From an uncultured Clostridia bacterium (GTDB lineage: Bacteria; Bacillota; Clostridia; TANB77; CAG-508): a stretch of DNA of 64,000 nt. The position numbers and the translations under genes are program-made. Location: the NCBI GenBank assembly GCA_944392105.1, contig CALXVM010000008.1, forward strand, positions 2,148-66,147. The letters run 5' to 3'. Below, one piece after another: positions 3,597-64,000 of this stretch. The notes beneath the pieces are model-generated. The model had not been told where the DNA came from, searched no databases, and saw only the letters and a list, made by a program, of their open reading frames with translations. Position 1 is the first letter of the stretch; every line of letters starts with the position of its first letter.

Positions 3597-3820
3597 ATTT
3601 TATTTAGTAATTTTAGATTATTTTACCAAATTAGATTAATATTCCAAAATAGTTCAATCTTAAAAATTAATATAAAAAAAATAGTTTAATATAAAAGATA
3701 TCCAATAGCCTGGCAATTAATTAAAACTGCTATACTATTGGATATTTTTTATCATACAATTATTTTTCTTTTTTTGTAATTCTTTGTTTTATTTTTCGAT
3801 TTTATTTAATTTAAGAGTAG

Positions 3821-3960
3821 ATCGTATCTTAATTTCTTAAATCAGGAAATTAAGATCTGGTCCCAATTTCTCAAATTAGGAATTTCAGATCTGGTCCCAA
3901 TTTCTTCTGACCTGTCCCCAATTTTCCAAATCGGGAAGTTGGGACCTGTCCCTAATTTCC
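3821..3960 (-). repeat. Family-A palindromic repeat array (about 4 units of GAYCTGKTCCCNAATTTC with short self-complementary spacers)
   Basis: Units AGATCTGGTCCCAATTTC (3855, 3887), TGACCTGTCCCCAATTTT (3909) and GGACCTGTCCCTAATTTC (3941). Inverted repeat ATCTTAATTTC/GAAATTAAGAT at 3827-3856. The terminal unit supplies GGA AAT TAG, the end of ftsH. Confidence 0.85.
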
Positions 3961-11847: not shown

Positions 11848-13185
11848 CTAAAGTGCGACCAAGACCGGACGGAACGAAACATTGCTGCTGCTGCCACCGT
11901 TGTTGTCGAAAGCGAACACGCCAGCACGCGAGCCATCGTAGTAATAGCCTCCGCGGCGGAAGAAAGGACTGCTCGTGAAAGGAAAGTAAGAGCAATCACC
12001 GTACCACGATCCGTTGCTTGTGTTGCCGTTCGCGCTCGTCTCATACACTGCGTCTCCATACTTACTTGCATTTTGATTATAGTTATTTGTGTTATTATCC
12101 GTACTTGCTTTTGTATACACATTCTTCGTCTTTGCGTCTCCATTTACTAAGCTTGAGCCATAGCTTGTTAAATTACCATTTCCGTTATTTACGTATCCTG
12201 CTACATATTCCCAGGCTCCTCCACTCATATCATACACTCCATACACATTTCCTGTTGTACTTTGTGCTCCATTATTTACATATGTGTTTCCACTTCCTCC
12301 TCCTGTGTAATATGAGCTATTACTGTTTATTGTTACTTCTTCTGTTTGTTTTCCATATTTACTTTTACTTAGGTATGCTACTGCTCCCCATTCATCATTT
12401 TTCATCATATGACTATTTAATGTTTTATTATAATTTAAACAATTTGTATATGCCGTTCCTATATAAATATATCTCCAGCTTGCTACTCCTGGTTTTACCT
12501 GTAATGTCTTTGTTGTTACGTTATCTCCGCTACTGCTATTACTATTTCCTTGTACACTACTTGCTTCAAATTTTGCTACCCATAGCCCACTTACTGTTTG
12601 ACCATAATTAAATGCTGGATGGATATTCCAATTTCCTGCTCCACTTGCATTATTAAAGCTTGTTCTTCCTGTACTTGTTTCGTTCGTTAAACCTTTCATG
12701 AACTCTACTTCTATTGTTCCTGTGCTACTACTATGATATCCACTTGTTATACTATATGCATATCTTGGTATCCATACCCACATGCTTCCATCACTTGTTT
12801 TTGCATTTGCCCATTTCTTTGCTGAATAATCATACCAATCTGGGTCGCTTCCTGTTGTCTCTACCCAATCTCCTGCTCCGCCATTTGCTGTTTCGTCCCA
12901 TTTTATAGGTGTCATTCCTTCCCCTAAATCTGGCGTGTTCACTCCTTTTTCTTCATTATAACTTCCATCGCTTGGTAACGTTGGCTCCTCTGGCGTGCTT
13001 CCTCCTATTGTATTATTCATAATACTTGCTAAATCATTATATAATTGGTTTAACTCGTCTTGCTCTTGTTCTACTGCTTCCTTTGTTTTATTTGCTGCCT
13101 CTTGTGCCTTTTTTATTATTCCATTATCACTAAATATTGTACTTATTGTTACACTTGCTAATATTAATAATACTACAATCGTCAC
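11848..13185 (-). CDS. Pilin-like N-terminus / C-type-lectin-fold (FGE-sulfatase-like) surface protein with hypervariable C-terminus, paralog 1; 5' end apparently frameshifted
   Basis: Paralog of 25722-27179 and 54034-55446 (WVWIPRYAYSITSGYHSS, IHPAFNYGQTVSG, HMMKNDEWGAVAYLSKSKYGK, GVYDMSGGAWEYV, SFRPVLV). The GITLIALVVTIVVLLILA segment is in this frame but has no ATG. The expected leader (ATG 13300, RBS GGGAGG, MRVKATKK...) is in another frame, which implies a 1-nt shift near 13210-13225. Confidence 0.7.
   Translation of the reverse strand: MTIVVLLILASVTISTIFSDNGIIKKAQEAANKTKEAVEQEQDELNQLYNDLASIMNNTIGGSTPEEPTLPSDGSYNEEKGVNTPDLGEGMTPIKWDETANGGAGDWVETTGSDPDWYDYSAKKWANAKTSDGSMWVWIPRYAYSITSGYHSSSTGTIEVEFMKGLTNETSTGRTSFNNASGAGNWNIHPAFNYGQTVSGLWVAKFEASSVQGNSNSSSGDNVTTKTLQVKPGVASWRYIYIGTAYTNCLNYNKTLNSHMMKNDEWGAVAYLSKSKYGKQTEEVTINSNSSYYTGGGSGNTYVNNGAQSTTGNVYGVYDMSGGAWEYVAGYVNNGNGNLTSYGSSLVNGDAKTKNVYTKASTDNNTNNYNQNASKYGDAVYETSANGNTSNGSWYGDCSYFPFTSSPFFRRGGYYYDGSRAGVFAFDNNGGSSSNVSFRPVLVAL
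11851..12055 (-). other. G+C-rich hypervariable patch (DGR-type variable region candidate, VR1)
   Basis: Hand count gives 66/120 G+C at 11881-12000, against 17/60 at 12301-12360 in the same gene. Scaffold codons are identical to VR2 and VR4. Variable codons are NNC/NNT. The hairpin GGTCGCA-N7-TGCGACC (11840-11860) encloses the stop codon. Confidence 0.65.
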
Positions 13186-13663
13186 TACTAATGCTATTAG
13201 CGTTATCCCGCTTGTTTTCTCTTTGCTTCTTTACCTTTAGCAAATTTTTTATTTCTAGCTCATCAATCTTGTTTAATTTTTTTGTTGCTTTTACTCTCAT
13301 TTTATTTTCCTCCCATTTACTTCTTTTGTTATTATTGCCAACTTTTCTAGTATTAATCATCTTTATTACATATAATTTAATATCTTTTAATATTGCTGGC
13401 CATCTTTTATTAATGTTCTTAATAAAAAATATGGAATTATTTATTCTTTTTTCTTTTATCGTATAGAATAAATATATCATTTCACTTCTTGATAGTCAAT
13501 ATTAATTATTCCTATTTTTATTACATTTTCTTTACGTTTTTATTACAATTATCTTATGACAAAATCATAGTAAAAACTTTCAATTTACCTTTTAAAGCGT
13601 AAAAATAGGCAGGTTCAAAAGACCCTGCCTATAAATTAAGTTAACACCCCTTTTACGTTTATT

Positions 13664-20784: not shown

Positions 20785-20839
20785 GCTGACCTGTCCCCGA
20801 TTTCCCAAATCGGGAAATTGGGACCTGTCCCTAATTTCC
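20785..20839 (-). repeat. Family-A palindromic repeat, one full ~55-bp unit
   Basis: GCTGACCTGTCCCCGATTTCCCAAATCGGGAAATTGGGACCTGTCCCTAATTTCC. Its last 9 nt encode G-N-stop of the M23 gene. Confidence 0.85.
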
Positions 20840-22105
20840 AGGTGGGTTAACATATTTTAGTGGGTCTTGCGTGTAGCCGTTTATTCTTACTTCGAAGTGG
20901 CAGTGTGGACCTGTAGAATTTCCTGTTGATCCTACTTCCATTATTAAGTCGCCTTGTTTTACTTGTTTGCCTTTTTCTGTTAGTATTTTTTGTCCGTGAG
21001 CATACAATGTTGTAATTCCGTTTCCATGGTCTATCATAACGCAGTTTCCATAGCTTCCCAATTCTCCTGCATAAGATACTACGCCATCTAGTGCTGCGAC
21101 TATAGGTGCTCCATAGTCTGCTCCTCCTATGTCTAAACCTTGATGTAGTTTTACTACACCTTGTATTGGGTGCTCTCTTATTCCATAATTAGATGTTATT
21201 ACGGTTCCAGACACCGCTACAGGCCAAATTAATGCTCCTCCTGTGTATTGTATATCTATGCTTGGAGTTGTAGAAATTTGCATTATTAATGTTTCTATTC
21301 TTAATTGCTCATTTTTGTATGCTGTTATTTCGTCATTAAGCTTTTTCTCGTTTTCTTGTAGGCTGTTAACATATCCTTGTTGCAAGCTTCTTGTATTACT
21401 AAGTACAAGTGACATCTGTTCTGCTTTTGCCTTTATTACTTTTGTTTGAGCATTTTCGTTCTCTATTTTTTGTTTATATTGTTCTATCTCTTCTTTTTTC
21501 TGAGCAACTTCATTCATAAGGTTAATATCTACTTCTGTTATTTGTCTCATAAAATAAATAGATGACAAAAACTCTGGTAAACTTTTAGACCTTAATAATA
21601 CATCTAAATATGATACCTCTCCTGCTTTAGATATTGCTACAAGTCTTTTTCTTACTGTGTCGTCCTTTTGCTCATAGTCTTTTGTTGTCTCTTCTAATTC
21701 TATTGTCATTGATTTTATAGATTCTTCATAACTGTTTACTTTGTTATTTAGTTCGTTAATTTGATTTTCATAATCTCTTATAGAATCGTCCAATTTTTGA
21801 ATTTGAAGTAGAGTATTTGACATTTCGTTTTGTACATATTCAAGTTGTAAACTAGATTGATTTATTTTTTCTTCGACTTCTTCTTTTTGTTGGTTTAAAC
21901 TGTCTATAGTATTTGTAGCTTGATTTTGCTCTGTGTTTGAGCCTTCGTTATTCTGTGTAGTTGCATTTGTAGTATTTGAATTTGTGCTTGTCATAGAAGT
22001 ACCTGCATTTTCGCTTGCTATGTCTATACTACTTGCTATAACTGTAACAGAATAACTAATTATTAAAATTAAAGCAAGGAGAGTGCAAAGTATTTTGTTT
22101 TTCAA
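20831..22105 (-). CDS. Coiled-coil M23 family metallopeptidase (EnvC/PcsB-like architecture)
   Basis: Signal peptide, long coiled coil, and an M23 domain with HQGLDIG and GPHCHFEVR. It lies downstream of ftsEX. Confidence 0.85.
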   Translation of the reverse strand: MKNKILCTLLALILIISYSVTVIASSIDIASENAGTSMTSTNSNTTNATTQNNEGSNTEQNQATNTIDSLNQQKEEVEEKINQSSLQLEYVQNEMSNTLLQIQKLDDSIRDYENQINELNNKVNSYEESIKSMTIELEETTKDYEQKDDTVRKRLVAISKAGEVSYLDVLLRSKSLPEFLSSIYFMRQITEVDINLMNEVAQKKEEIEQYKQKIENENAQTKVIKAKAEQMSLVLSNTRSLQQGYVNSLQENEKKLNDEITAYKNEQLRIETLIMQISTTPSIDIQYTGGALIWPVAVSGTVITSNYGIREHPIQGVVKLHQGLDIGGADYGAPIVAALDGVVSYAGELGSYGNCVMIDHGNGITTLYAHGQKILTEKGKQVKQGDLIMEVGSTGNSTGPHCHFEVRINGYTQDPLKYVNPPGN

Positions 22106-25721: not shown

Positions 25722-27179
25722 CTAATTTGCGACCAAGACCGGACGGAACGAAGTGTTGCTGCTAGCACCGCCATCGTTGCCGTTGAAATAGAACACGCCA
25801 GCACTCGAGCCATCGTTGTAATAGCCTCCGCGGATGAAGAAAGGAGCGCTCGTGCCAGGAAAGCCAGAGTAATCGCCGTACCACGATCCGTTGCTTGAGT
25901 TACCGTTTGAGCTCGTCTCGTAAACCGCGTCTCCATACACTCCTGCATTTGCACTGTAATTACTACTGTTATTATCTGAACTTCCTTTTGCATACACGTT
26001 CTTCGTCTTTGAGTCACTACTATTTACTAAACTTGCTCCATAGTTTGTTAAGCTTGCATTTCCATTATTTACATATGCTGCTACATATTCCCATGCTCCT
26101 CCGCTCATATCATATACTCCATACACATTTCCCGTTGTACTTGCTTTTACTCCTTGTGTACTTGTATAATCTGTCGTTGTTCCTGTATTTTGAGATGCAC
26201 TTGCACTATTTCCTGCTGATCCTGTTATGAAACTGCTACTATTATTTATCCATACTTCTTCTGTTTCTTTTCCATATTTACTTTTACTTAAATATGCTAC
26301 TGCTCCCCACTCATCATTTTTCATCATATGGCTATTTAGTGTGCTATTATAACTTTTACATTTATTATATATATCATTTACACTTATACCTCTCCAGCTC
26401 TGTACTCCTGGTTGTACCTTTATTACTCCACTACTTCCTGCACTACTTGAGCTTGCATTACTTTGGCTTGCTTCAAATTTTGCTACCCATATTCCACTTA
26501 CTGTTTGCCCATAGTTAAATGCTGGATGGATATTCCAGTTTCCTTGTCCACTTGCATTATTAAAGCTTGTTCTTCCACTTGTTGTTTCGTTTCTTGTTCC
26601 TTTCATAAATTCTACTGCTATTGTTCCTGTACTGCTACTATGATATCCACTTGTTATACTATATGCAAACCTTGGTATCCATACCCACATACTTCCATCT
26701 GCTGTTTTTGCGTTTGCCCATTCCTTATTTTCATAATCATACCATTCTGGGTTGCTTCCGTCTGTTTCTACCCAATCTCCTGCTCCCTCATTTGCTGTTT
26801 CGTCCCATTTTATTGGCGTCATTCCTTCTCCTAAATTTGGTGTGTTTACTCCTTTGTCTTCACTAAAACTTCCATCACTTGGCAATTCTGGCTCTTCTGG
26901 TGTTGTTCCGCTTCCGCCTATTCCATTTAGCATATTTTCCATATAGTCTGCTATTTCATTCATTTGTGTTTGTTCATTTATTGTTGCTTCTTTTGTTTTG
27001 TTTGCCGCTTCTTGTGCCTTTGCTATTATTCCGTTTTCACTAAATACTAAGCTTATTGTTATTCCTGCTAATATCAATAATACTACAATTGTTACAACTA
27101 GTGCTATTAGTGTTATACCTTGTGTTTTTTTACAATATGTTTTGCTACTATCTTTTTGCAATAAAAATGTTTTCTCCAT
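25722..27179 (-). CDS. Pilin-like N-terminus / C-type-lectin-fold (FGE-sulfatase-like) surface protein with hypervariable C-terminus, paralog 2
   Basis: ATG 27179 with RBS GGGAGG is preferred over the track start 27242. Leader MEKTFLLQKDSSKTYCKKTQG, then ITLIALVVTIVVLLILAGITISLVF (class III signal-like). C-terminal GVYDMSGGAWEYV ... PFFIRGGYYNDGSSAGVFYF ... SFRPVLVAN. Confidence 0.8.
   Translation of the reverse strand: MEKTFLLQKDSSKTYCKKTQGITLIALVVTIVVLLILAGITISLVFSENGIIAKAQEAANKTKEATINEQTQMNEIADYMENMLNGIGGSGTTPEEPELPSDGSFSEDKGVNTPNLGEGMTPIKWDETANEGAGDWVETDGSNPEWYDYENKEWANAKTADGSMWVWIPRFAYSITSGYHSSSTGTIAVEFMKGTRNETTSGRTSFNNASGQGNWNIHPAFNYGQTVSGIWVAKFEASQSNASSSSAGSSGVIKVQPGVQSWRGISVNDIYNKCKSYNSTLNSHMMKNDEWGAVAYLSKSKYGKETEEVWINNSSSFITGSAGNSASASQNTGTTTDYTSTQGVKASTTGNVYGVYDMSGGAWEYVAAYVNNGNASLTNYGASLVNSSDSKTKNVYAKGSSDNNSSNYSANAGVYGDAVYETSSNGNSSNGSWYGDYSGFPGTSAPFFIRGGYYNDGSSAGVFYFNGNDGGASSNTSFRPVLVAN
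25725..25935 (-). other. G+C-rich hypervariable patch (DGR-type variable region candidate, VR2)
   Basis: See the finding at 25722-25935. Stop-spanning hairpin at 25714-25734 (7 pairs in the mRNA sense, including 2 G-U). Confidence 0.65.
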
Positions 27180-37060: not shown

Positions 37061-37115
37061 GCTGACCTGTCCCCAATTTCCCGATTTGGGAAGTTGGGAC
37101 CTGTCCCTAATTTCC
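37061..37115 (-). repeat. Family-A palindromic repeat, one unit, central loop inverted relative to other copies
   Basis: GCTGACCTGTCCCCAATTTCCCGATTTGGGAAGTTGGGACCTGTCCCTAATTTCC. The loop is GATTT here and AAATC at 3929, 20807 and 63156. The last 9 nt encode G-N-stop of the ATPase. Confidence 0.85.
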
Positions 37116-38945
37116 AACCAGCACTCTTAACGCATTTAATATTGCTAAAACAGATACACCAACATCTGCAAAAACAGCTTGCCACATGTTAGATAAACCA
37201 ATTGCACTTAATATAAGTACTAGTATTTTTACTACAATTGCAAATATAATATTTTGTTTTACAATTTTTAATGTTTTTTTAGAAATTTTTATTGCATCTA
37301 CTACTTTTGAAGGTTCGTCTGTCATTAGTACTACATCTGCCGCTTCAATAGCAGCATCACTGCCAAGTCCTCCCATTGCAATTCCAATATCTGAAATTGC
37401 TAATACAGGAGCATCGTTAATTCCATCTCCAACAAAAGCAAGTTTTCCTTTCTCCGATTTACTTTTCATTAATTCTTCTACTTTTTCTACTTTGTCATTA
37501 GGTAATAACTCTGTATAAACTTCGTCTAAGCCTAATTCTTTTGCTACACTTTCTCCTACAGCTTTCTTATCTCCTGTTAACATTACTATTTTCTTTACAT
37601 TGTTTTTCTTTAACTTTTCAATTGCTTTTTTAGCATCTGCTTTTATTTTATCAGATATTATAATAGTTCCTTTAAATTGATTATTTATAGCTACATATAA
37701 TATTGTTCCTATTTCATTACATTTTATGTATTCAATATTTTTTTCTTGCATTAGTTTTTCGTTTCCTACAAAAACTTCTTTTCCGTCAACTACTGCATTT
37801 ACTCCTAAACCTGATAACTCATGCGTTTCTGATATTTTTTTATTGTCTATATCTTTTCCATATGCTTTTTTTAAAGAATTTGCTATTGGATGATTTGAAA
37901 AGCTTTCGGCATATGCAGCGTATTTAATTAAGTCTTCTTTTGTTATATCTACAGAGTTTACTTTTTTTACTTCAAATACACCTTCTGTTAATGTTCCTGT
38001 TTTGTCAAATACTACTACTTCTGTTTTAGATAAAGCTTCCAAATAATTGCTTCCTTTAACTAATACTCCTAATTTAGATGCCCCACCAATGCCTCCGAAA
38101 AATCCTAATGGTATTGATATAACAAGTGCACAAGGACATGATACTACTAAAAATGTCAATGCTCTATATAGCCATTGTATAAATTCCGTTTCTTTAAATA
38201 TTATTGGTGGAATTATTGCAAGTAATACTGCTATCACAACAACTATTGGTGTATAGTACTTTGCAAATTTACTAATAAAGTTTTCTGACTTAGACTTTTT
38301 ACTACTTGCATTTTCTACTAAATCTAATATTTTGCTAACAGTAGACTCTCCGAAACTCTTTGTTACTTTAATCTCTATTAAACCATTTTGATTTATACTT
38401 CCACTTAATACTTCGTCTCCAATGTTTACTTCTCTTGGAACAGATTCACCCGTTAATGCAGAAGTGTCAAGCATAGAATTTCCGTCTACTATGGTTCCAT
38501 CTAGTGGTACTTTCTCTCCAGGTTTTACTATTATTATATCTCCTATACTTATTTTATCTGGACTTACTTTCTCTATACTGCCATTTTTCTTTATATTTGC
38601 AAAATCTGGTCTAATATCCATAAGGCTAGCTATTGATTTTCTAGATTTATCTACAGCATAGCTTTGGAACATTTCTCCCACTTGGTAAAATAGCATAACT
38701 GCAACTGCTTCTGGATATTCTCCAATTGCGAAAGCACCTATTGTAGCAATTGTCATAAGAAAATTCTCGTCAAAAACTTCTCCTTTAAATATATTCTTTA
38801 TTGCTTCTATAAGTACATCTAATCCCACTATTAAATAACTAATAATATATATTCCAATATTAATCCAAGCATTTTCAAAAGGAATAATTAAAGATATTAA
38901 AAATAATATTAATGCAATTACAACTTTTATTACTTCCTTTTTCAT
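37107..38945 (-). CDS. Heavy-metal translocating P1B-type ATPase (Cd/Zn/Co class likely)
   Basis: CPC motif (VSCPCALVISIP), DKTGTLT, GDGINDAP. No N-terminal HMA domain. It is paired with an ArsR-family gene. Confidence 0.9.
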   Translation of the reverse strand: MKKEVIKVVIALILFLISLIIPFENAWINIGIYIISYLIVGLDVLIEAIKNIFKGEVFDENFLMTIATIGAFAIGEYPEAVAVMLFYQVGEMFQSYAVDKSRKSIASLMDIRPDFANIKKNGSIEKVSPDKISIGDIIIVKPGEKVPLDGTIVDGNSMLDTSALTGESVPREVNIGDEVLSGSINQNGLIEIKVTKSFGESTVSKILDLVENASSKKSKSENFISKFAKYYTPIVVVIAVLLAIIPPIIFKETEFIQWLYRALTFLVVSCPCALVISIPLGFFGGIGGASKLGVLVKGSNYLEALSKTEVVVFDKTGTLTEGVFEVKKVNSVDITKEDLIKYAAYAESFSNHPIANSLKKAYGKDIDNKKISETHELSGLGVNAVVDGKEVFVGNEKLMQEKNIEYIKCNEIGTILYVAINNQFKGTIIISDKIKADAKKAIEKLKKNNVKKIVMLTGDKKAVGESVAKELGLDEVYTELLPNDKVEKVEELMKSKSEKGKLAFVGDGINDAPVLAISDIGIAMGGLGSDAAIEAADVVLMTDEPSKVVDAIKISKKTLKIVKQNIIFAIVVKILVLILSAIGLSNMWQAVFADVGVSVLAILNALRVLVGN

Positions 38946-46763: not shown

Positions 46764-48014
46764 TTATTGCAATTCATAGTTCCATTCTTCTTCTGTTTGG
46801 TCATCTATTTTATGTATACTATCTTCTGTGACATTAGATTTTAGAATAACTACGGGGCGCACCGCAAAGCCGTAGTTGTACTCGCCGCCGTCCGAGAGGA
46901 ACTGGCCGTAACCGCGCACAACGGTATCACCGCCATCCGAATGCACAAAGCGAACACAGAAGTGAGCATAACTCGAGCCAGCAACCACGCAGCGTGAAGC
47001 GAGCCAGTACGCCTTTCCGCTTCTGTACTCAACATTGTCAAAAAGTAAATTATATAATCTCTGGTCTGTAGCTGTTGTTAAAGCTGGGTTATTAGCCATG
47101 TATCCATAATAATCACTTGTTTTACTAAAATTACTCTTTGTTCCTGCTAAGTAGTCTTCTGGACTTGCATATTGGTTTGTATATGAATAAGTCTGTCCAT
47201 AATGCCCACTTTCGTCTAAACTTGGTTTTCCTGTTTCATCTACTGTAACTCCTACTACTTGGTTTACGTCTTCTATTGTTACGCTTCTTGCTGTTTGTGC
47301 CAAGTCATTTTTATATAATGCACATATGTTGTTTAATTCTGTCTCTGCATTTATATATCCTTTAGCACCATTTAAAAAATAATATGGAACTTCTGGATAT
47401 GAAGAATTTGACTCCCTTTTCATTGGGCTTCCTGCTATTAGTTTTATTCCTCCTGTTGCTTCATCTTTTCCTAATACCCTCCATGTTAATTGGTTATTTG
47501 CTACATTAAATATTTGGTCTGAGTCTCCTCCATCTGTTATTAAATCTTCCATCCCTGTTTTACTTCCCAAACTTGTGTAGCTTCCACTTGTTGGATTTTG
47601 GTAGTTTACATAGTCTCCTATTTTTAACTCTCCTGCATCATATAATTCTACTAATGTTCTTGCTGTGTTAAATGTTATTGTTCTGCTTCCTATTGTTACA
47701 CTTCCTGTTTCTTTTATTTGTGCTTTTTCTTCTGCTGTTATTTGTTTTTGACTTTCTAAACTATCTAATAGCTCATCTAAACTTTGCGAACTTCCTCCTA
47801 CATATTCTGTTAATGATTTATCTAATTCCCACATGTCTCTTGCTTCTTCTACTGCTGCCCCTCTTGTTTCTTCTTTTGCCTCTTTTGCTTTTGTTACTAC
47901 TCCATTTTCACTAAATACTAGACTTATTGTTATTCCTGCTAGTATTAGCAATACCACAATAGTAACAACTAGTGCTATTAGCGTTATTCCTCTTTTTCCT
48001 CTTACTCTTTTCAT
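46764..48014 (-). CDS. Pilin-like N-terminus / DUF1566-like C-type-lectin-fold protein with G+C-rich C-terminal patch (element-borne)
   Basis: ATG 48014 with RBS AAGGAGGTG is preferred over the track start 48074. MKRVRGKRG then ITLIALVVTIVVLLILAGITISLVFSENG. C-terminal YWLASRCVVAGSSYAHFCVRFVHSDGG...YGFAVRPVV resembles the DUF1566/Lcl-type fold end. Confidence 0.8.
   Translation of the reverse strand: MKRVRGKRGITLIALVVTIVVLLILAGITISLVFSENGVVTKAKEAKEETRGAAVEEARDMWELDKSLTEYVGGSSQSLDELLDSLESQKQITAEEKAQIKETGSVTIGSRTITFNTARTLVELYDAGELKIGDYVNYQNPTSGSYTSLGSKTGMEDLITDGGDSDQIFNVANNQLTWRVLGKDEATGGIKLIAGSPMKRESNSSYPEVPYYFLNGAKGYINAETELNNICALYKNDLAQTARSVTIEDVNQVVGVTVDETGKPSLDESGHYGQTYSYTNQYASPEDYLAGTKSNFSKTSDYYGYMANNPALTTATDQRLYNLLFDNVEYRSGKAYWLASRCVVAGSSYAHFCVRFVHSDGGDTVVRGYGQFLSDGGEYNYGFAVRPVVILKSNVTEDSIHKIDDQTEEEWNYELQ
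46853..47030 (-). other. G+C-rich patch (DGR-type variable region candidate, VR3)
   Basis: The coding strand reads TAC TGG CTC GCT TCA CGC TGC GTG GTT GCT GGC TCG ... GGC TTT GCG GTG CGC CCC GTA. It is adenine-poor and G+C-rich inside an AT-rich gene. Inverted repeat CTACGG-N14-CCGTAG at its 3' boundary (46851-46876). Confidence 0.55.
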
Positions 48015-48181
48015 TTTTCTTGCACCTCCTTTCGCCTTTTCTTCTTTTATTTGCTTATTTTTCTCTTCTTCCATTTTTTACTTTCTCCCCCCTCTCTTTT
48101 TTGGCACGCAAAAATGACAGGCTATTTTTTATATCATTAATAAAGGCTTTTTCGCCCTTTCTTATTTCTCTAAAACTATTC

Positions 48182-51948: not shown

Positions 51949-53703
51949 TTACTCTAAAATAGCTTTTATTCTTCTTACACCTGCTGAGCTTGATTCTTCT
52001 TTTAATATTTTAAACTTACCTAACTCACCTGTATGTTTTACATGAGGTCCACCGCAAATTTCTTTACTAAAGTCTCCTATAGTATAAACTTTTACCTTCT
52101 CTCCATATTTGTTTTCAAATAATCCAGTTGCTCCTGCTTTTTTAGCTTCTTCAACAGTCATTTCTTCACATGTTACAGGTAAATCTTCTTTAATTTTTTC
52201 ATTTACTATATCTTCTACTTGTTGCAACTGCTCTTTTGTCATCTTTTCTGGATGTGAAAAGTCAAATCTTAGTCTTTCTGTTGTTATATTTGAGCCTTTT
52301 TGTTTTGCGTGGTCTCCCAAAACAATCTGTAATGCTTTATGTAGTAAGTGTGTAGCTGTATGATACTTTATAGTTTGCTCATTTTGGTCTGCTAATCCTC
52401 CCTTGAATTTTTGCTCACTACCCATCCTAGATTTATCTTGATGCTCTTTAAATAATTTGTCGAATTCTGTCATGTCTATCTTAAATCCTTGCTCTTCTGC
52501 TAAATCTGATGTAATTTCTGGTGGAAATCCATAAGTCTCATACAATTTAAAAATAGTTTGACCATCTATTGTATCTTTATTTTCTTGTTTTAGCCTTTGA
52601 ATAGCTTTTTCAAACTCTTTTTCTCCATGTGACAATGTTTTTACAAACTTATCTTTTTCTTCTAAAATAACTTGCTTAATTGTATCTCTATTTTTGTCTA
52701 GCTCTGGGTACATTTCTTTTAAAATGTCAATATCTAGCTCTATTAATTCACCAAGCTCGTCAAGGCTTATTTGTAATTTATTTAAGTGTCTTGTCATCCT
52801 TCTTATTAATCTTCTTAAAATATATCCTCTGTCTATATTGCTTGGTCTACCGCCATCAGATATTATCATCATACTAGAACGTAAATGTTCCGCAATAATT
52901 CTCCTACTTTTTATGTCATCAACTTTTTGCAAACTCTCTAGTTTTTCCATTACTGGTGCAAATAATTCTGTGTCGAACGGTGTTGTTTTTCCTTGAAGTA
53001 AAAATGTTATTCTCTCTAGCCCCATTCCTGTATCTACGTTTTGTTGCTTTAATTTAGAGTATTTTCCATCTTTAGATTTATAATATTCCATAAAAACGTT
53101 ATTCCAAATTTCGACATATTTTCCGCAATCACATGATGGTTGGCAGTTTTCAGAGCATGGCTCTTTACCAGTATCATAAAACATCTCTGTATCTGGTCCA
53201 CATGGTCCGTCTTCTCCTGCTATCCACCAGTTATCATCTTTTCCATAAAAATAAATTCTTTCGTCTGGTATACCAGCTTTTCTCCAACACTCAGCTGTAA
53301 CCTCATCTCTTGGAGCATCCTCATCTCCTGCAAAACAAGTTACAGAAATTTTATCTGCTGGAATTCCAAGCTCTTTAGTTAAAAACTCAAAACTCATACT
53401 TACAGCTTCTTCTTTGAAGTAATCTCCTAAAGACCAGTTTCCTAACATTTCAAAATATGTTAAGTGCCTGTTATCCCCAACCTCTTCTATATCATTAGTA
53501 CGCACACACTTTTGATAATCTGTAAGCCTTTTGCCTGCTGGGTGCTTTTCGCCTAAAAGATATGGAACTAGTGGTTGCATACCAGCTGTTGTAAACAATA
53601 CAGATGGATCATTTTCTGGAATTAATGGTGCACTTGGAATAACTGCATGTCCATGTTTTTTAAAAAAATTTAAATATTTGTTTCTTATTTCTATTGCTTT
53701 CAT
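51949..53703 (-). CDS. alaS: Alanine--tRNA ligase, short form (catalytic + tRNA-recognition + editing domains, no C-Ala domain)
   Basis: N-terminus FTTAGMQPL, WSLGDYFK. Editing-site HTATHLLH ... CGGPHV. Only 584 aa, against ~870 aa for typical bacterial AlaRS. Confidence 0.85.
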   Translation of the reverse strand: MKAIEIRNKYLNFFKKHGHAVIPSAPLIPENDPSVLFTTAGMQPLVPYLLGEKHPAGKRLTDYQKCVRTNDIEEVGDNRHLTYFEMLGNWSLGDYFKEEAVSMSFEFLTKELGIPADKISVTCFAGDEDAPRDEVTAECWRKAGIPDERIYFYGKDDNWWIAGEDGPCGPDTEMFYDTGKEPCSENCQPSCDCGKYVEIWNNVFMEYYKSKDGKYSKLKQQNVDTGMGLERITFLLQGKTTPFDTELFAPVMEKLESLQKVDDIKSRRIIAEHLRSSMMIISDGGRPSNIDRGYILRRLIRRMTRHLNKLQISLDELGELIELDIDILKEMYPELDKNRDTIKQVILEEKDKFVKTLSHGEKEFEKAIQRLKQENKDTIDGQTIFKLYETYGFPPEITSDLAEEQGFKIDMTEFDKLFKEHQDKSRMGSEQKFKGGLADQNEQTIKYHTATHLLHKALQIVLGDHAKQKGSNITTERLRFDFSHPEKMTKEQLQQVEDIVNEKIKEDLPVTCEEMTVEEAKKAGATGLFENKYGEKVKVYTIGDFSKEICGGPHVKHTGELGKFKILKEESSSAGVRRIKAILE

Positions 53704-53840: not shown

Positions 53841-53881
53841 AAATAACAGTACCAAAATATAAAATATTTGTACTGTTATTT
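53841..53881 (-). terminator. 12-bp stem hairpin ending the variable-gene 4 transcript
   Basis: AAATAACAGTAC (53841-53852) pairs with GTACTGTTATTT (53870-53881). Confidence 0.55.
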
Positions 53882-53891
53882 TATTTATATT

Positions 53892-54033
53892 CTACACCGT
53901 CAAAATACTCGACCTCTTATTTTGCGTTTTGAGACGTTTTGTCCGACTTTCGAATGATTTACATAGGTTGTGCCGATTTAGGCGGTATTTGTGCCTATTA
54001 TGTGCGTTTTAGAGGCATATTTTGTGGTCACAT
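53892..54033 (-). other. Conserved 3' UTR element (copy 3 of 3)
   Basis: Aligns with 25581-25721 along its whole length. Confidence 0.55.
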
Positions 54034-55446
54034 CTAAATTGTGGCTAAGACCGGACGGAACGAGACGCTGCTGTTGCTAACGCCATAGTAACACTCGAAA
54101 TAGAACACGCCAGCACTAGAACCACCGCCGAAATAGGCTCCGCGATAGAAGAAAGGAAGGCTCGTGTGAGGAAAGCTAGAGGAATCGCTGTACCACGATG
54201 TTGCTCCGCTACCGCTTGTGCTCGTTTCGTACACCGCGTCTCCATACACTCCTGCGTTTGCGTTATAATTATTTGTTTGATTTTCTGAGCTTGCTTTACT
54301 ATACACGTTCTTCGTCTTTGGATCTCCATTTACTAAGCTTTTTCCATAGCTTGTTAAATTGCCATTTCCGTTATCTACATACGCTGCTACATATTCCCAT
54401 GCTCCTCCGCTCATATCGTATACTCCCCAGACGTTTCCGGTTGTACTTTGTGCTCCATTATTTACATATGTGTTTCCACTTCCTCCTCCGGTATAATATG
54501 AACTATTGCTATTTATTGTTACTTCATCGTTTTTTCCATATTTACTTCTACTTAAATATGCTACTGCTCCCCACTCGTCATTTTTCATCATATGACTATT
54601 TAATGTCTTATTATAATTTAGACAGTTTGTATATATGCTATCTACTGTTATACTTCTCCAACTCTGTACTCCTGGCTGTACCATTATTTTTCCATTACTA
54701 TTACTTGCTTCAAATTTTGCTACCCATATTCCACTTACTGGTTGTCCATAGTTAAATGCTGGGTGTATTACATATCCATTTGGAAATTGTGTATAATTTG
54801 TTGTTGTACTATCATTATATTCTACTATTGTTTGTCCTGTTGCTGTTTCGTTACTCGTTCCTTTCATAAATTCTATGCTTATTTCTGTTGCTGTACTTGT
54901 ATGGTATCCTGTACTTGGAATATTATATGCATATCTTGGTATCCACACCCACATACTTCCATCTGTAGTTTTTGCATTTGCCCATTTCTTTGCTGAATAA
55001 TCATACCAATCTGAGTCACTTCCGTCCGTTTCTACCCAATCTCCTGCTCCGCCATTTGCTGTTTCGTCCCATTTTATTGCTGTCATTCCTTCTCCTAAGT
55101 TTGGCGTATTTACTCCTTTTGACTCGCTATAACTCCCATCGCTTGGTAATTCTGGCTCAGGTTCCGGTGTTGTACTTCCTCCACCTATTCCATTTAACAT
55201 ATTTTCCATTGCAGCTGTTACATCATTCATTTGTGTTTGTTCATTTATTACTGCTTCTTTTGTTTTATCTGCTGCCTCTCTTGCTTTTGCTATTATTCCA
55301 TTTTCACTAAACACTAAGCTTATTGTTATTCCTGCTAGTATTAAAAGTACTACAATCGTTACAACTAGTGCTATTAGTGTTATACCTTGTGTTTTTTTAC
55401 AATATGCTTTTCTATTATCTTTTTGTAATAAAAACGTTTTCTCCAT
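54034..55446 (-). CDS. Pilin-like N-terminus / C-type-lectin-fold (FGE-sulfatase-like) surface protein with hypervariable C-terminus, paralog 4
   Basis: ATG 55446 with RBS GGGAGG. Leader MEKTFLLQKDNRKAYCKKTQG, then ITLIALVVTIVVLLILAGITISLVF. C-terminal GVYDMSGGAWEYV ... PFFYRGAYFGGGSSAGVFYF ... SFRPVLATI. Confidence 0.8.
   Translation of the reverse strand: MEKTFLLQKDNRKAYCKKTQGITLIALVVTIVVLLILAGITISLVFSENGIIAKAREAADKTKEAVINEQTQMNDVTAAMENMLNGIGGGSTTPEPEPELPSDGSYSESKGVNTPNLGEGMTAIKWDETANGGAGDWVETDGSDSDWYDYSAKKWANAKTTDGSMWVWIPRYAYNIPSTGYHTSTATEISIEFMKGTSNETATGQTIVEYNDSTTTNYTQFPNGYVIHPAFNYGQPVSGIWVAKFEASNSNGKIMVQPGVQSWRSITVDSIYTNCLNYNKTLNSHMMKNDEWGAVAYLSRSKYGKNDEVTINSNSSYYTGGGSGNTYVNNGAQSTTGNVWGVYDMSGGAWEYVAAYVDNGNGNLTSYGKSLVNGDPKTKNVYSKASSENQTNNYNANAGVYGDAVYETSTSGSGATSWYSDSSSFPHTSLPFFYRGAYFGGGSSAGVFYFECYYGVSNSSVSFRPVLATI
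54037..54245 (-). other. G+C-rich hypervariable patch (DGR-type variable region candidate, VR4)
   Basis: Same scaffold codons as VR1 and VR2, with variable NNY codons. A weaker stop-spanning hairpin at 54026-46. Confidence 0.6.
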
Positions 55447-55608
55447 GTTATTCCTCCCACTTTTGTTTCTTTTGTTATTGTTTCCCATTTTTTTATTTTT
55501 AATCATTATTTTACTTTTTGTTCTGCATTACATTTATATATTAACATTTCAAGTTAGTATAATGATTATTAACTTTAATATAGAAACAATTTTATCTCAT
55601 TTTGCAAT

Positions 55609-59912: not shown

Positions 59913-59993
59913 GGAAATTGAGGACAGGTCAAAGAAATTAGGACCAGATCCAAATTTCTTATTTTAAGAAATTTAGATCTGGTCCCAATTTCC
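59913..59993. repeat. Family-A repeat cluster with units in both orientations
   Basis: GGAAATTGAGGACAGGTC and GAAATTAGGACCAGATC are inverted units. Then AAATTTCTTATTTTAAGAAATTT and AGATCTGGTCCCAATTTCC (a forward unit). It ends 2 nt before the deoD stop. Confidence 0.8.
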
Positions 59994-59994
59994 A

Positions 59995-60714
59995 CTAAAT
60001 ACTTTCCAATGCTAATTTAATCATGTTGTTTAGGCTCTTTTCCCTTTCTTCTGCTGTACTACTTTGTTTTTTTGCCAAAGAATCTACAACAGTTAATAAA
60101 CAAGATGCTTTTTTATTAAGATATTTTGCAATATAGAATAAAGCAAAAGCTTCCATTTCTGCTCCAATTATATTTAGGTCCTTTGGCAATCTATTTAATA
60201 ATGCATTTAAGTCATCTAAATATCCATCGAAACAATCTGAGCATAACGTATTTCCTTTTATATAAGGAATGTTTAACTTTTTTGCCACTTCTTCTATACT
60301 TGCATTTAGCTCTTCATCTGCTTGCATTAAATGGCAATCATTAGAATTCCATTCATATGCAAAATTTCCTTCTGTATACGTTTTATCTACTAAAATTGTA
60401 TCTAATAAGTCTATGTCTGGCGTGTATACTCCACATGAGCCTATCCTTATAATATTTTCCACATCATAGAATTTGTAAAGCTCATAACAGTAAATTCCCA
60501 TACTAGGCATTCCCATTCCAGAAGAGAATACTGTAACTTTTTTATCGCCATATTTTCCTGTATATGCAAGCATGTTTCTAACAGTATTTACTAGCTTTAC
60601 ATCTGTCAAAAAATTCTCAGCTATATATTTAGCACGTAATGGATCTCCTGGCATTAATACGTTTTTCTCAATATCATTCTTATTTGCGTTACAGTGAATA
60701 GTCATAAAACTCAT
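59995..60714 (-). CDS. deoD: Purine nucleoside phosphorylase, DeoD type
   Basis: PNP/UDP family: LMPGDPLRAKYIAE, SSGMGMPSMGIY, GAEMEAFAL. Confidence 0.88.
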   Translation of the reverse strand: MSFMTIHCNANKNDIEKNVLMPGDPLRAKYIAENFLTDVKLVNTVRNMLAYTGKYGDKKVTVFSSGMGMPSMGIYCYELYKFYDVENIIRIGSCGVYTPDIDLLDTILVDKTYTEGNFAYEWNSNDCHLMQADEELNASIEEVAKKLNIPYIKGNTLCSDCFDGYLDDLNALLNRLPKDLNIIGAEMEAFALFYIAKYLNKKASCLLTVVDSLAKKQSSTAEEREKSLNNMIKLALESI

Positions 60715-60804
60715 TCTCCTTCATTGGTTTTATTAAGATACTTTATTAGTATTAAACAGCGTAATTAATAAAATGTGAATCGTACTTTTTCCAACTTTAA
60801 AAAT

Positions 60805-60825
60805 GCTGACCTGTCCCCAATTTCC
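60805..60825 (-). repeat. Family-A repeat, solitary half unit
   Basis: GCTGACCTGTCCCCAATTTCC, just downstream of greA. Confidence 0.7.
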
Positions 60826-60830
60826 AAATT

Positions 60831-62700: not shown

Positions 62701-63043
62701 CTTCTAATTCCCAGCATCTCTTATTTACAGTTCATCGCATTAATATTCAATATCGTATAAAAGCAAATACTTAGATATTTAAATTTAATGTTTGTCTTAA
62801 ATTATATTTAGGTAATCTTCTTTTTATTACTTAAGTTCTGTTATTTTTAATTCTAACTCCATAATTTTTATGTACTAGGTATTGTTTTAAATTTTCTATT
62901 TAAACATTATTTTTAATTCTTCAATTTTTTAAGTGTATTGTCTAAAGAATCACAAAAAGCTAATAACTAAGAAAATCTCTTAATTATTAGCTTTTACTCT
63001 ATTTTTCTTTATCTATCTTTATTTATCTTCATATTTTAAATTT

Positions 63044-63188
63044 AAGATCTGCCTCAAATTTCTTCTTTTAAGAAATTTAAATCTGGTCCCAATTTCTTCT
63101 TTTTAGAAATTTAGATCTGGTCCCATTTTCTTTGCTGACCTGTCCCCAATTTCCCAAATCGGGAAGTTGGGACCTGTCCCTAATTTCC
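63044..63188 (-). repeat. Family-A palindromic repeat array (5 units)
   Basis: AAGATCTGCCTCAAATTTC, AAATCTGGTCCCAATTTC, AGATCTGGTCCCATTTTC, TGACCTGTCCCCAATTTC, GGACCTGTCCCTAATTTCC. Interleaved arms are AAATTTCTT/AAGAAATTT and CCCAATTTCCC/GGGAAGTTGGG. The terminal unit encodes G-N-stop of the GH18 gene. Confidence 0.88.
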
Positions 63189-64000
63189 AAAAAGCTTTTC
63201 TTTTACTATGTCCCATACTTCTGGGCTTTCTCTGTCTTTTTCCCAATATGCTGCTCCTGCTAATTTATATTCGTTTATTAAGTCTAGCTTAGCAGAAATT
63301 GATGTAGTGTCTTCTACCCACATCTTATATACGGCACCATTTTGTGTATATTCTACATAGTATTGTTTTAAGTTGTCATCCCATCTCTTTTCTACATTTG
63401 ATGGAAGTACTTTGTCTACATCTTTTAAGTCTACTGTATCACTGCTAATCTTTCCATTTTCTTCTTTCCATAGTCTTGTATAAAATGGTACTGCTAATAT
63501 AAGTTTGTCAGGGTCTACTCCTTCTTGTCCTAAAAATTTAGTAACGTTTACTTCTACCCAGTCACATCCAGCTGTAGTTCCTTCTTTATTAGAGTTTGCT
63601 CCGTATTGGTCATATGCCATAAAAATAATATAGTCTGCTACTTTACTTATAGTATTTCTGTCAAAGCACATTGACCATGTTTCTGAGCCGTCTGGTGCTG
63701 TTACATCTACAGATAAAACTTTGCCCATTTCATTTAGTCTTGGCTCTAGCTCTATTAAGAATCTATTAAACATTGCCTTATCTTCCATGTACATGTTTTC
63801 AAAGTCTATGTTTATTCCGTCTAAATTATATTTTACAACTAAGTCCACAATATTAGCAATTAATTTATTTCTTAATTTGTAATCGTTCATAATTTCAGAA
63901 GTTGTTTCCATCATAGATTCATTTGAAATCATTGCCCATACTTCTATTCCATTGTTATGTGCCCAATTGATATAATTTAGTCCAGCTGTTCCTACATTTT
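63180..64000 (-). CDS. Glycoside hydrolase family 18 domain protein, N-terminus beyond window edge
   Basis: Catalytic DGINIDFE motif. The reading frame stays open upstream of the track Met to position 64000 (…VGTAGLNYINWAHNNGIEVWAMISNES…). Confidence 0.8.
   Translation of the reverse strand, partial: NVGTAGLNYINWAHNNGIEVWAMISNESMMETTSEIMNDYKLRNKLIANIVDLVVKYNLDGINIDFENMYMEDKAMFNRFLIELEPRLNEMGKVLSVDVTAPDGSETWSMCFDRNTISKVADYIIFMAYDQYGANSNKEGTTAGCDWVEVNVTKFLGQEGVDPDKLILAVPFYTRLWKEENGKISSDTVDLKDVDKVLPSNVEKRWDDNLKQYYVEYTQNGAVYKMWVEDTTSISAKLDLINEYKLAGAAYWEKDRESPEVWDIVKEKLFGN

What the first reader, a model, noticed from the sequence alone, without database searches (positions are those of the whole stretch)
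54026..54245. Third copy of the hypervariable patch (paralog 4) with its own variable residues and a one-codon length difference
- The scaffold codons are the same as in the other two copies.
- The variable positions are different (protein ...SWYSDSSSFPHTSLPFFYRGAYFGGGSSAGVFYFECYYGVSNSSVSFRPVLATI).
- There is one codon fewer in the N-terminal part of the patch than in paralogs 1 and 2.
- Outside the patch, paralogs 2 and 4 share a near-identical 5' leader, signal region and 3' UTR. The divergence is therefore concentrated in the patch and in the mid-domain.
- The length difference suggests this copy is served by a different template. Alternatively it is no longer being homogenised.
Basis: partly seen in the sequence, partly recalled or inferred. 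Interest (0 to 1): 0.7.

Follow-up and report, generated by a model that had tools for sequence, protein, structure and literature searches.

The report
Frozen variable region of a retroelement target
The patch is the variable tip of a surface-protein gene that a diversity-generating retroelement, lying just outside the window, once rewrote at template adenines; in this strain the retroelement has lost its reverse transcriptase and this copy no longer changes, so it is a typical but fossilised example of a known system.

Summary
Window 54040-54187 (minus strand) is a 148-nt GC-rich block, the last 49 codons of ORF 54034-55506. It shares its scaffold with two paralogs (VRs at 25728-25875 and 11854-11998) and differs from them mostly at codon positions 1-2.

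It is the variable region (VR) of a diversity-generating retroelement (DGR). A contig 99.93% identical to the window carries the template repeat (TR) about 2.3 kb beyond the window's right end, next to a MutS-like gene and an avd remnant. Related contigs have MutS-like, Avd and a DGR-type reverse transcriptase at that place.

Against the TR, 22 of 40 adenine sites differ but only 11 of 106 other sites (p=6e-8).

The one-codon difference (54196-54216) lies upstream of the templated block. It says nothing about a separate template.

The copy looks fossilised:
- The window's strain type carries a 1.2-kb deletion that removes most of avd and most of the RT gene.
- This allele has three non-adenine changes in the VR's 3' end and hairpin arm.
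- Its VR is the same in all 16 protein variants examined, whereas sister alleles with an intact 3' end nearly all have their own VR.

Verdict: a new member of a known kind, of moderate interest.

The parts
54034..55506 (-). Target gene 'paralog 4' (490-aa ORF). Public gene calls start at the third Met, 55446, giving 470 aa (= P0121, or P0001 with one E/D difference). It has an N-terminal pilin-like hydrophobic anchor, a mid-domain, and a C-terminal FGE-sulfatase / C-type-lectin-like domain ending in the VR.
   Evidence: A profile of 64 family members best matches PDB 5vf4, the Thermus aquaticus DGR variable protein, at E=7.6e-7.
54040..54187 (-). Variable region (VR): 148 nt homologous to the template repeat without gaps; the last 49 codons of the gene.
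   Evidence: Against the L011 TR, 22/40 adenine sites and 11/106 non-adenine sites are mismatched (Fisher p=5.7e-8). Against the L020-type TR the counts are 24/43 and 6/103 (p=9e-11).
54026..54046 (-). Degenerate hairpin spanning the stop codon: 5' arm AGCCACA (54046-54040, inside the VR), loop ATTTAGA, 3' arm TGTGACC (54032-54026). The three non-adenine substitutions relative to every TR and to the other VRs compared are at 54046 (G>A), 54044 (T>C; also seen in the L020/L025 TR-target fusion) and 54042 (G>A).
   Evidence: Predicted DNA hairpin energies are -1.7 kcal/mol here, -7.8 for paralog 1, -6.0 for a cassette-adjacent target and -2.7 for paralog 2; the TR has no hairpin. In the 6-sequence consensus this copy accounts for the A-C and C-A mismatches at two of the helix pairs.
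54196..54216 (-). Site of the one-codon length difference. It lies upstream of the TR-homologous block, in a GC-rich 5' extension that is not templated by the TRs seen.
   Evidence: The shorter form is shared by all par4-lineage alleles.
53874..54033 (-). 3' flank of about 160 nt conserved among the remote paralogs (85% between paralogs 2 and 4). No significant structure was predicted beyond the hairpin.
25728..25875 (-). VR of paralog 2 (148 nt), with the 3' end GGTCGCA intact.
   Evidence: Its 90% cluster holds 3 VR haplotypes among 5 full-length members.
11854..11998 (-). VR of paralog 1 (145 nt). It has a 3-nt deletion inside the templated block and the strongest 3' hairpin.
63180..64000 (-). 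3' part of a GH18 gene cut by the window end. In every related contig the next genes are MutS-like, avd (or its remnant), RT (or the deletion) and the TR. The cassette therefore begins about 1 kb beyond base 64000 and the TR lies at about 66.27-66.42 kb in window-equivalent coordinates.

Best explanation
The patch is the variable region of a non-adjacent target gene of a chromosomal diversity-generating retroelement (DGR).

**Mechanism.** The TR/VR relationship and the cassette make-up are shown here; the biochemical steps are inferred from known DGRs.
1. A TR RNA is transcribed from its own promoter, on the strand opposite to the RT gene.
2. The DGR reverse transcriptase copies it, together with Avd and a small MutS-like protein, and misincorporates opposite template adenines.
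3. The cDNA replaces the homologous 148 nt at the 3' end of target genes. Only TR adenines (mostly the AA of AAC/AAT codons) become variable, on the ligand-binding face of a C-type-lectin-like domain of a surface-anchored protein.

**Layout.** The cassette (MutS-like, Avd, RT, TR, adjacent target) sits about 10-12 kb from this gene, just past the window's right end.

**Current state (inferred).** This copy is a fossil.
- The window's strain type carries a 1,209-nt deletion that removes most of avd and most of the RT gene, and an IS256-family element where the adjacent target should be.
- The 'VLATI' allele has three non-adenine substitutions in the GC-rich 3' end and hairpin arm, the part that in studied DGRs marks a VR as a recipient.
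- Its VR does not vary across strains.

The one-codon difference is an ordinary indel upstream of the templated block.
For: - **TR found.** L011 is 99.93% identical to the window over 5.9 kb. It holds an Asn-codon-rich non-coding copy of the patch at L011:152-299.
- **Adenine bias.** Fisher p is 5.7e-8 to 9e-11 for par4, and similar for par1 and par2. Cassette-adjacent targets match their own TR with 17-19 adenine mismatches and 1-4 non-adenine mismatches.
- **Cassette genes.** Avd passes NCBIfam NF033474 (81.2 bits, cut-off 80) and Pfam bAvd (1.4e-22). The small protein matches MutS_I (1.4e-7). The RT (YMDD motif) best matches PDB 8ub7_A at 4.6e-43 over its full length and fails the group II intron and retron cut-offs.
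- **Known architecture.** MutS-like (MSL) accessory genes, TR and RT on different strands, and non-adjacent targets are all described in Wu et al. 2018 (PMC5758913).
- **Target fold.** Pfam FGE-sulfatase for paralog 2 (23.8 bits, cut-off 23.3). The family profile hits TaqVP, PDB 5vf4, at 7.6e-7.
- **RT gene largely deleted.** The identical deletion junction is in every contig that carries the window's MutS-like allele P0283, and in L021-L024.
- **Frozen VR.** All 16 'ATI'-ending proteins have the same VR; two carry single substitutions of the Val whose TR codon GTG has no adenine. They span at least 80 contigs and differ by up to 6% elsewhere, and the same VR also sits on a 627-aa homolog (P0028). 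The other ~100 relatives with a recognisable VR tail show about 90 distinct VR sequences.
- **Damaged hairpin.** This copy accounts for the A-C and C-A mismatches at two pairs of the conserved 3' hairpin.
Against: - The window stops before the cassette, so its own TR and deletion are inferred from near-identical contigs.
- The rest of the genome is unseen. Paralog 3 has a different VR class, which hints at a second DGR whose RT might act in trans.
- Assemblies show consensus sequence only, so minority VR variants would be invisible.
- 15 of the 16 'ATI' sequences come from one 90%-identity cluster, so they are not independent samples.
- By predicted energy, paralog 2's hairpin (-2.7 kcal/mol) is nearly as weak as paralog 4's (-1.7), yet paralog 2 shows several VR haplotypes. 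The link between the three substitutions and the freezing is therefore only correlative.
- The 6-11 non-adenine mismatches exceed what strict DGR surveys accept for a target.
- The AlphaFold model failed (mean pLDDT 36.8), so the fold rests on sequence matches.
Confidence: 0.8

Rival explanations
1. The VR is still an active DGR target. An RT supplied in trans (a second DGR in the genome, or RT-bearing strains followed by recombination) keeps rewriting it, and the observed uniformity is a recent sweep of one successful variant.
For: - Some conspecific contigs keep an RT: L027 has it intact, and L020/L025 have it interrupted by a group II intron that might splice out.
- Paralog 2 and par4-like alleles show many VR haplotypes.
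- Paralog 3 shows a second VR class.
Against: - The same VR sits on backgrounds that differ by up to 6% at the protein level and on a 627-aa homolog.
- The allele carries three non-adenine changes in the 3' end.
- No conspecific contig examined has a complete, uninterrupted cassette.
Confidence: 0.13
2. This copy is served by a separate template repeat of different length.
For: - A sister species carries three tandem TR units (L019), so multi-TR arrays exist in this lineage.
- TR alleles differ between strains, and this strain's TR is not an exact parent of the VR.
Against: - The indel lies outside the TR-homologous block.
- The VR aligns without gaps to the single TR found in each conspecific contig.
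- All three L019 TRs are 148 nt.
Confidence: 0.04
3. No retroelement is involved. The pattern reflects ordinary paralog divergence with positive selection on a binding surface, plus gene conversion of the scaffold.
For: - pN/pS near 1 is not by itself proof of templated mutagenesis.
- The mid-domain is equally divergent.
Against: - A non-coding, adenine-rich template copy sits next to Avd and the RT.
- Mismatches fall on adenines with p<1e-7.
- Third positions are conserved.
Confidence: 0.02

Closest known systems
MSL-containing DGRs ('Architecture D' of Wu et al. 2018, Nucleic Acids Res 46:11; PMC5758913), a class that includes the Legionella DGR
   Same: - A small MutS-domain-I protein together with Avd and a DGR-type RT.
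- Chromosomal rather than evidently phage-borne.
- Targets with an FGE-sulfatase / C-type-lectin-like domain.
   Different: - The TR lies downstream of the RT on the opposite strand, with its own promoter-like -10 box.
- The targets carry a pilin-like N-terminal anchor.
- In this species the cassette is found in several states of decay.
Treponema denticola DGR (TvpA and several remote targets; PMC4891356 and, as cited in PMC5758913, seven non-adjacent targets)
   Same: - One chromosomal cassette serves several dispersed paralogous target genes.
- The VRs end FGE-sulfatase-type domains.
   Different: - The Treponema element uses an HRDC accessory gene, not MSL (PMC5758913).
- From my own knowledge, its targets are lipoproteins.
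- Here the targets lie within roughly 10-55 kb of the cassette.
Bordetella phage BPP-1 DGR (Mtd, avd-TR-brt), the prototype
   Same: - Adenine-specific mutagenesis.
- A GC-rich identical 3' end shared by VR and TR.
- A short hairpin just after the VR that the TR lacks.
- RT similarity: the best PDB hit is 8ub7_A at 4.6e-43. That 8ub7 is the Bordetella bRT is my recollection and was not confirmed here.
   Different: - The prototype is phage-borne, has a single adjacent target, and has avd, TR and brt on one strand.
- Here the 5' arm of the hairpin overlaps the last 7 nt of the templated block.
Thermus aquaticus DGR variable protein TaqVP (PDB 5vf4; bioRxiv 10.1101/432187)
   Same: It is the best solved-structure sequence match to the target family's C-terminal domain (E=7.6e-7, profile positions 221-348).
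   Different: The similarity is distant. The N-terminal architecture is different, and no usable 3D model of the window protein was obtained.

Membership tests
Diversity-generating retroelement (DGR) target / VR | A TR/VR pair: a near-identical non-coding template whose differences from the VR fall on template adenines. | tested here: met
   - The TR is at L011:152-299, on a contig 99.93% identical to the window.
- par4 has 22/40 adenine sites and 11/106 non-adenine sites mismatched (p=5.7e-8); against the L020-type TR, 24/43 and 6/103.
- The non-adenine mismatches exceed those of cassette-adjacent targets, which have 1-4.
Diversity-generating retroelement (DGR) target / VR | A DGR-clade reverse transcriptase encoded with the TR. 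| tested here: met
   - Met in conspecific and sister-species contigs: L027, L018 and L019 carry a 347-388-aa RT with a YMDD motif.
- Its best PDB match is 8ub7_A (4.6e-43) and it scores below the cut-offs of the group II intron and retron models.
Diversity-generating retroelement (DGR) target / VR | An intact RT present in the same genome as this VR (needed for current activity). | tested here: not met
   - Every contig with the window's MutS-like allele (L011/L032, L013/L036, L033, L034, L035, L037) has the same 1,209-nt deletion, which removes most of avd and all but the last ~28 codons of the RT gene.
- The window itself has no YxDD-type RT.
- The rest of the genome could not be examined.
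Diversity-generating retroelement (DGR) target / VR | Accessory protein Avd (with MSL in Architecture D). | tested here: met
   - NCBIfam NF033474 'DGR protein Avd' scores 81.2 bits (cut-off 80) and Pfam bAvd gives 1.4e-22.
- The MutS-like protein matches Pfam MutS_I at 1.4e-7.
- In the window's strain type avd is cut short by the deletion: about 33 native codons remain, and the ORF now ends after 41 codons.
Diversity-generating retroelement (DGR) target / VR | The VR sits at the C-terminal end of a C-type-lectin / FGE-sulfatase-fold domain. | tested here: inconclusive
   - Pfam FGE-sulfatase just passes for paralog 2 (23.8 bits, cut-off 23.3) and is on record for many homologs, but paralog 4 itself gives no hit.
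- The family profile hits the DGR variable protein 5vf4 at 7.6e-7.
- The AlphaFold model was unusable (pLDDT 36.8).
Diversity-generating retroelement (DGR) target / VR | Recipient marks at the VR 3' end: a GC-rich segment identical to the TR, followed by a hairpin that the TR lacks. | tested here: not met
   - For this copy there are three non-adenine substitutions (54046, 54044, 54042), and two of them (54046, 54044) break helix pairs; predicted energy -1.7 kcal/mol.
- The feature is met in paralog 1 (-7.8) and in the adjacent target of L019 (8-bp stem, 4-nt loop, -6.0). The TR forms no hairpin.
Diversity-generating retroelement (DGR) target / VR | The VR varies between closely related genomes while the rest of the gene does not. 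| tested here: not met
   - This allele has one VR across 16 protein variants.
- The feature is met for par4-like alleles with an intact 3' end (P0002-P0006 each have a different VR) and for paralog 2 (3 haplotypes in 5 members).
Type IV pilin-like (prepilin N-terminal methylation) proteins | An N_methyl motif with a prepilin peptidase site and Glu at position +5. | tested here: inconclusive
   - Pfam N_methyl scores 16.8 bits, below the 21.2 cut-off; the L019 target scores 20.8.
- The sequence QG|ITLIALVV has Ala, not Glu, at +5.
- There are weak profile hits to pilins (E 0.65-0.98).

The most novel reading that the evidence does not exclude
The three non-adenine substitutions in the VR's 3' end and hairpin arm may be a natural 'lock'. 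On this reading they made this target refractory to further retrohoming and fixed one binding specificity. That allele then spread across strains of the species; it is the most frequently recovered par4 allele (about 80 contigs), and the same VR also sits on a 627-aa homolog. Taken with the recurrent decay of the cassette (RT deletion, avd stop codons, a group II intron inside the YMDD box, a TR-VR fusion), this would be a population-level picture of how a DGR-diversified surface-protein family is switched off one target at a time.
Probability: 0.3. Interest if true: 0.55.

Novelty: new member of a known kind. Interest (0 to 1): 0.35.

Why it matters
**For annotation.**
- Three or four 'hypervariable paralogs' in this window are explained as targets of one DGR whose cassette lies just off the window.
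- The hypervariability should not be read as an ongoing process in this strain.

**For DGR biology.**
- The locus offers a natural series: intact-ended alleles with many VRs, a mutated-ended allele with one VR, and cassettes with or without RT.
- This series could be used to test which 3' sequence features make a VR a recipient, and how DGR systems decay in gut Clostridia.

Nothing here changes the known mechanism.

Tried and rejected
- **TR inside the window:** only the three VR copies were found.
- **RT inside the window:** the only Yx-DD match (YLDD at 60222) is not in an RT-like context.
- **Rfam over the whole window:** three tRNAs only, nothing at the 3' flank.
- **Folding of 200 nt around and downstream of the stop codon:** no more stable than shuffled sequence (z=-0.43).
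- **AlphaFold2 with a 64-sequence alignment:** mean pLDDT 36.8, so no fold search was attempted.
- **Avd against PDB by sequence:** no hit.
- **Look-ups to fetch the window's own 68.7-kb contig beyond base 64000:**
  - The repeated look-up with the window's 426-aa protein returned only short contigs.
  - The flank was therefore inferred from near-identical contigs.
- **P0118 look-up:** another paralog about 50 kb away, not the cassette.
- **Metagenome scan for the mutated 3' end:** one true locus with an identical VR, and one chance match.
- **TR for paralog 3's different VR:** none in any fetched locus.
- **PDB identifiers of the Bordetella bRT structures:** not confirmable from the literature held.
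Full report
**What is at the coordinates.**
- The finding covers the 3' end of ORF 54034..55506 on the minus strand (490 aa).
- Repeat search and blastn find three copies of this gene end in the window and no fourth.
- A 3-way nucleotide alignment shows a conserved, GC-rich scaffold broken by variable dinucleotides at codon positions 1-2.
- The window averages 29.7% GC, and the patches are among its most GC-rich 200-nt stretches, at about 50%.

- In the last 50 codons pN/pS is 0.85-1.24, against 0.39-0.47 upstream.
- Third positions vary in 5-15% of codons in the windows starting at columns 470 and 480, against 16-67% upstream of the patch.
- The patch is therefore distinct in the kind of substitution it shows.
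- It is not distinct in amount. Between paralogs 2 and 4 the mid-domain is 74% identical and the patch 77%.
- The flanks called 'near-identical' are 92.6% (first 95 codons), 85.1% (160 nt after the stop) and 72.6% (200 nt upstream).

**Finding the template.**
- The window has no fourth copy and no RT.
- The protein is in public collections: P0001/P0121, 470 aa from the third Met, on at least 60 contigs.
- Context look-ups showed that contigs continuing past the window's right end carry a 140-aa MutS-domain-I protein and a bAvd gene directly after the GH18 gene that the window cuts at 64000.
- L011 is 99.93% identical to the window over 5.9 kb. At L011:152-299 it carries a non-coding copy of the patch rich in AAC/AAT codons (...NYYSNFPYSSNPFFKRGGNYNNGSNAGVFYFNNNNGNSNSNISFRPVLVAL).
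- This is a template repeat. Projected onto the window it lies at about 66.27-66.42 kb, roughly 12 kb from the paralog 4 VR.

**The cassette.**
- In two sister species, Clostridium sp. CAG:273 and the uncultured Clostridium sp. MGYG-HGUT-04539, the order is: GH18 (minus strand), MutS-like, Avd, RT. In L019 (MGYG-HGUT-04539) the RT is followed on the opposite strand by the TR units and a target gene whose VR faces the TRs. No TR or adjacent target was detected in the CAG:273 scaffold L018, which ends about 1.3 kb past its RT.
- Avd passes NCBIfam NF033474 (81.2 bits, cut-off 80) and Pfam bAvd (1.4e-22). The small protein matches MutS_I (1.4e-7).
- The RT has a YMDD motif and best matches PDB 8ub7_A at 4.6e-43 over its full length. 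It falls far below the group II intron and retron cut-offs. I recall 8ub7 as the Bordetella bRT, but could not confirm that here.
- Wu et al. 2018 (PMC5758913) describe all of these features: MSL (MutS-like) accessory genes that co-occur with avd ('Architecture D'), TR and RT on different strands, and non-adjacent targets.

**Adenine signature.**
- The TR-homologous block is 148 nt: window 54040-54187 for paralog 4, 25728-25875 for paralog 2, and 11854-11998 for paralog 1. Paralog 1 has an internal 3-nt deletion.
- Against the same-strain TR, paralog 4 differs at 22 of 40 adenine sites and 11 of 106 other sites (Fisher p=5.7e-8).
- Against the TR allele seen in L020, the counts are 24 of 43 and 6 of 103 (p=9e-11).
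- Cassette-adjacent targets match their own TR more cleanly, with 17-19 adenine mismatches and 1-4 non-adenine mismatches.
- The remote VRs in the window therefore carry a real but older DGR signature.

**The one-codon difference.**
- It lies at about 54196-54216, which is 9-29 nt upstream of where TR/VR homology begins.
- All par4-lineage alleles have the shorter form, including those whose VRs are diversified.
- It therefore gives no information about the template.
- Each conspecific contig has one TR-like copy.
- The sister species L019 has three tandem TR units, all 148 nt. Each is preceded by a TATAAT-like -10 box and followed by about 90 nt that are nearly invariant and predicted to be structured.

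**State of the retroelement in this species.**
- Taking L027 as the reference, the window's strain type (L011/L034/L035) lacks L027:10521-11729. That is most of avd and all but the last ~28 codons of the RT gene.
- An IS256-family transposase sits where the adjacent target should be.
- The same deletion junction is present in every contig that carries the window's MutS-like allele P0283, and in L021-L024.
- P0283, P0121 (the window's par4), P0375 (the window's par2) and P0380 (par3) all list a longest contig of 68,711 bp. That is most likely the window's source contig.
- Other conspecific contigs show other lesions:
  - L027 has two stop codons in avd and an intact RT.
  - L020/L025 have a group II intron (RT plus HNH) inserted in the YMDD box, and a TR fused to the adjacent target.
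  - L026 has lost the RT, the TR and the target.
- No conspecific contig examined has a complete, uninterrupted cassette.

**State of this VR.**
- Of the 134 relatives held end in 'ATI'. Fourteen of these have an identical VR. The other two differ by one substitution of the Val in AGVF, whose TR codon (GTG) contains no adenine.
- These proteins differ by up to 6% elsewhere, and the same VR also sits on a 627-aa homolog (P0028).
- The other ~100 relatives with a recognisable VR tail show about 90 distinct VR sequences. Par4-like alleles P0002-P0006, which end in VLVAL or VLVAI, each have their own VR.
- Paralog 2's small cluster has three VR haplotypes among five full-length members. One of them changes only the 3' part of the VR, as a partial retrohoming event would.
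- A metagenome scan for the mutated 3' end returned one true locus, with an identical VR.

**The three substitutions.**
- The 'ATI' allele has three non-adenine substitutions: 54046 G>A, 54044 T>C and 54042 G>A.
- They lie in the GC-rich terminal segment that is otherwise identical between the TR and the VRs. That segment also forms the 5' arm of a hairpin spanning the stop codon.
- Predicted hairpin energies are -7.8 (paralog 1), -6.0 (L019 adjacent target; 8-bp stem, 4-nt loop), -2.7 (paralog 2) and -1.7 kcal/mol (paralog 4). The TR forms no hairpin.
- In a six-sequence consensus, paralog 4 accounts for the A-C and C-A mismatches at two of the helix pairs.
- The link between these changes and the frozen VR is correlative. 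Paralog 2's hairpin is also weak.

**The protein.**
- The N-terminus has a sub-threshold N_methyl (pilin-like) motif and a hydrophobic anchor.
- The C-terminal half belongs to the FGE-sulfatase / C-type-lectin-like class used by many DGR targets. Pfam just passes for paralog 2, and the family profile hits the Thermus DGR variable protein 5vf4 at 7.6e-7.
- The structure prediction failed.

**Verdict.**
- It is a DGR variable region of a non-adjacent target, a new member of a known kind (MSL-type DGR with several dispersed targets).
- The 'different template' reading is not supported.
- The 'no longer updated' reading is supported, by the RT deletion in the strain type and by the uniform VR of this allele.
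- Confidence that it is a DGR VR is about 0.95. Confidence that it is now inactive is about 0.7.

Noticed in passing
window 46764-48074 (-), patch about 46847-47024: Paralog 3 has the same pilin-like N-terminus but a different GC-rich C-terminal patch (...AYWLASRCVVAGSSYAHF...GFAVRPVV). Its 90% cluster shows two haplotypes that differ at about 20 residues confined to that patch, so it looks like the VR of a second TR or DGR. No matching TR is in the window or in any fetched locus.
   Followed up: partly
window 13100-13300 (-): Paralog 1's leader (MINTRKVGNNNKRSKWEENKMRV...) and its anchor plus body (GITLIALVV...) are in different reading frames, with stop codons in between. This is an apparent 1-nt frameshift near AAACAAGCGGG: a pseudogene, an assembly error or recoding.
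   Followed up: partly
L019:12000-13400 (-): The sister species MGYG-HGUT-04539 has three tandem TR units with a period of about 480 nt. All are 148 nt but differ in sequence. Each is preceded by a TATAAT-like -10 box and followed by about 90 nt of nearly invariant, predicted-structured sequence. They lie on the strand opposite to the RT. The adjacent target's VR matches TR1 only (17 adenine and 1 non-adenine mismatch).
   Followed up: partly
L020:11440-14089 and L025, same coordinates: A 2.65-kb group II intron (462-aa RT/maturase scoring 350 bits on TIGR04416, plus an HNH ORF) is inserted inside the YMDD box of the DGR RT. In the same contigs the TR is fused to the adjacent target gene, as if VR and TR had recombined, leaving an unmutated Asn-rich 'VR'.
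   Followed up: partly
L034:3455-5559 and L017:12472-14675: The same IS256-family element (Transposase_mut, 97.7% identical) sits just beyond the TR in the window's strain type and just after another paralog (P0118, 798 aa) about 50 kb away in a different strain. This suggests IS-mediated rearrangement of DGR targets.
   Followed up: no
window 3797-3971, 20786-20850, 37062-37126, 59919-59994, 60787-60827, 63023-63199: A family of intergenic repeats of about 40-76 nt with internal dyad symmetry (for example CTGACCTGTCCCCAATTTCCCAAATCGGGAAGTTGGGACCTGTCCCTAATTTCCAA), present in 5-7 copies. They look like REP or MITE elements.
   Followed up: no
window 51949-53703 (-): The alanyl-tRNA synthetase homolog next to paralog 4 is only 584 aa (tRNA-synt_2c plus tRNA_SAD). 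From my own knowledge that is shorter than typical bacterial AlaRS.
   Followed up: no
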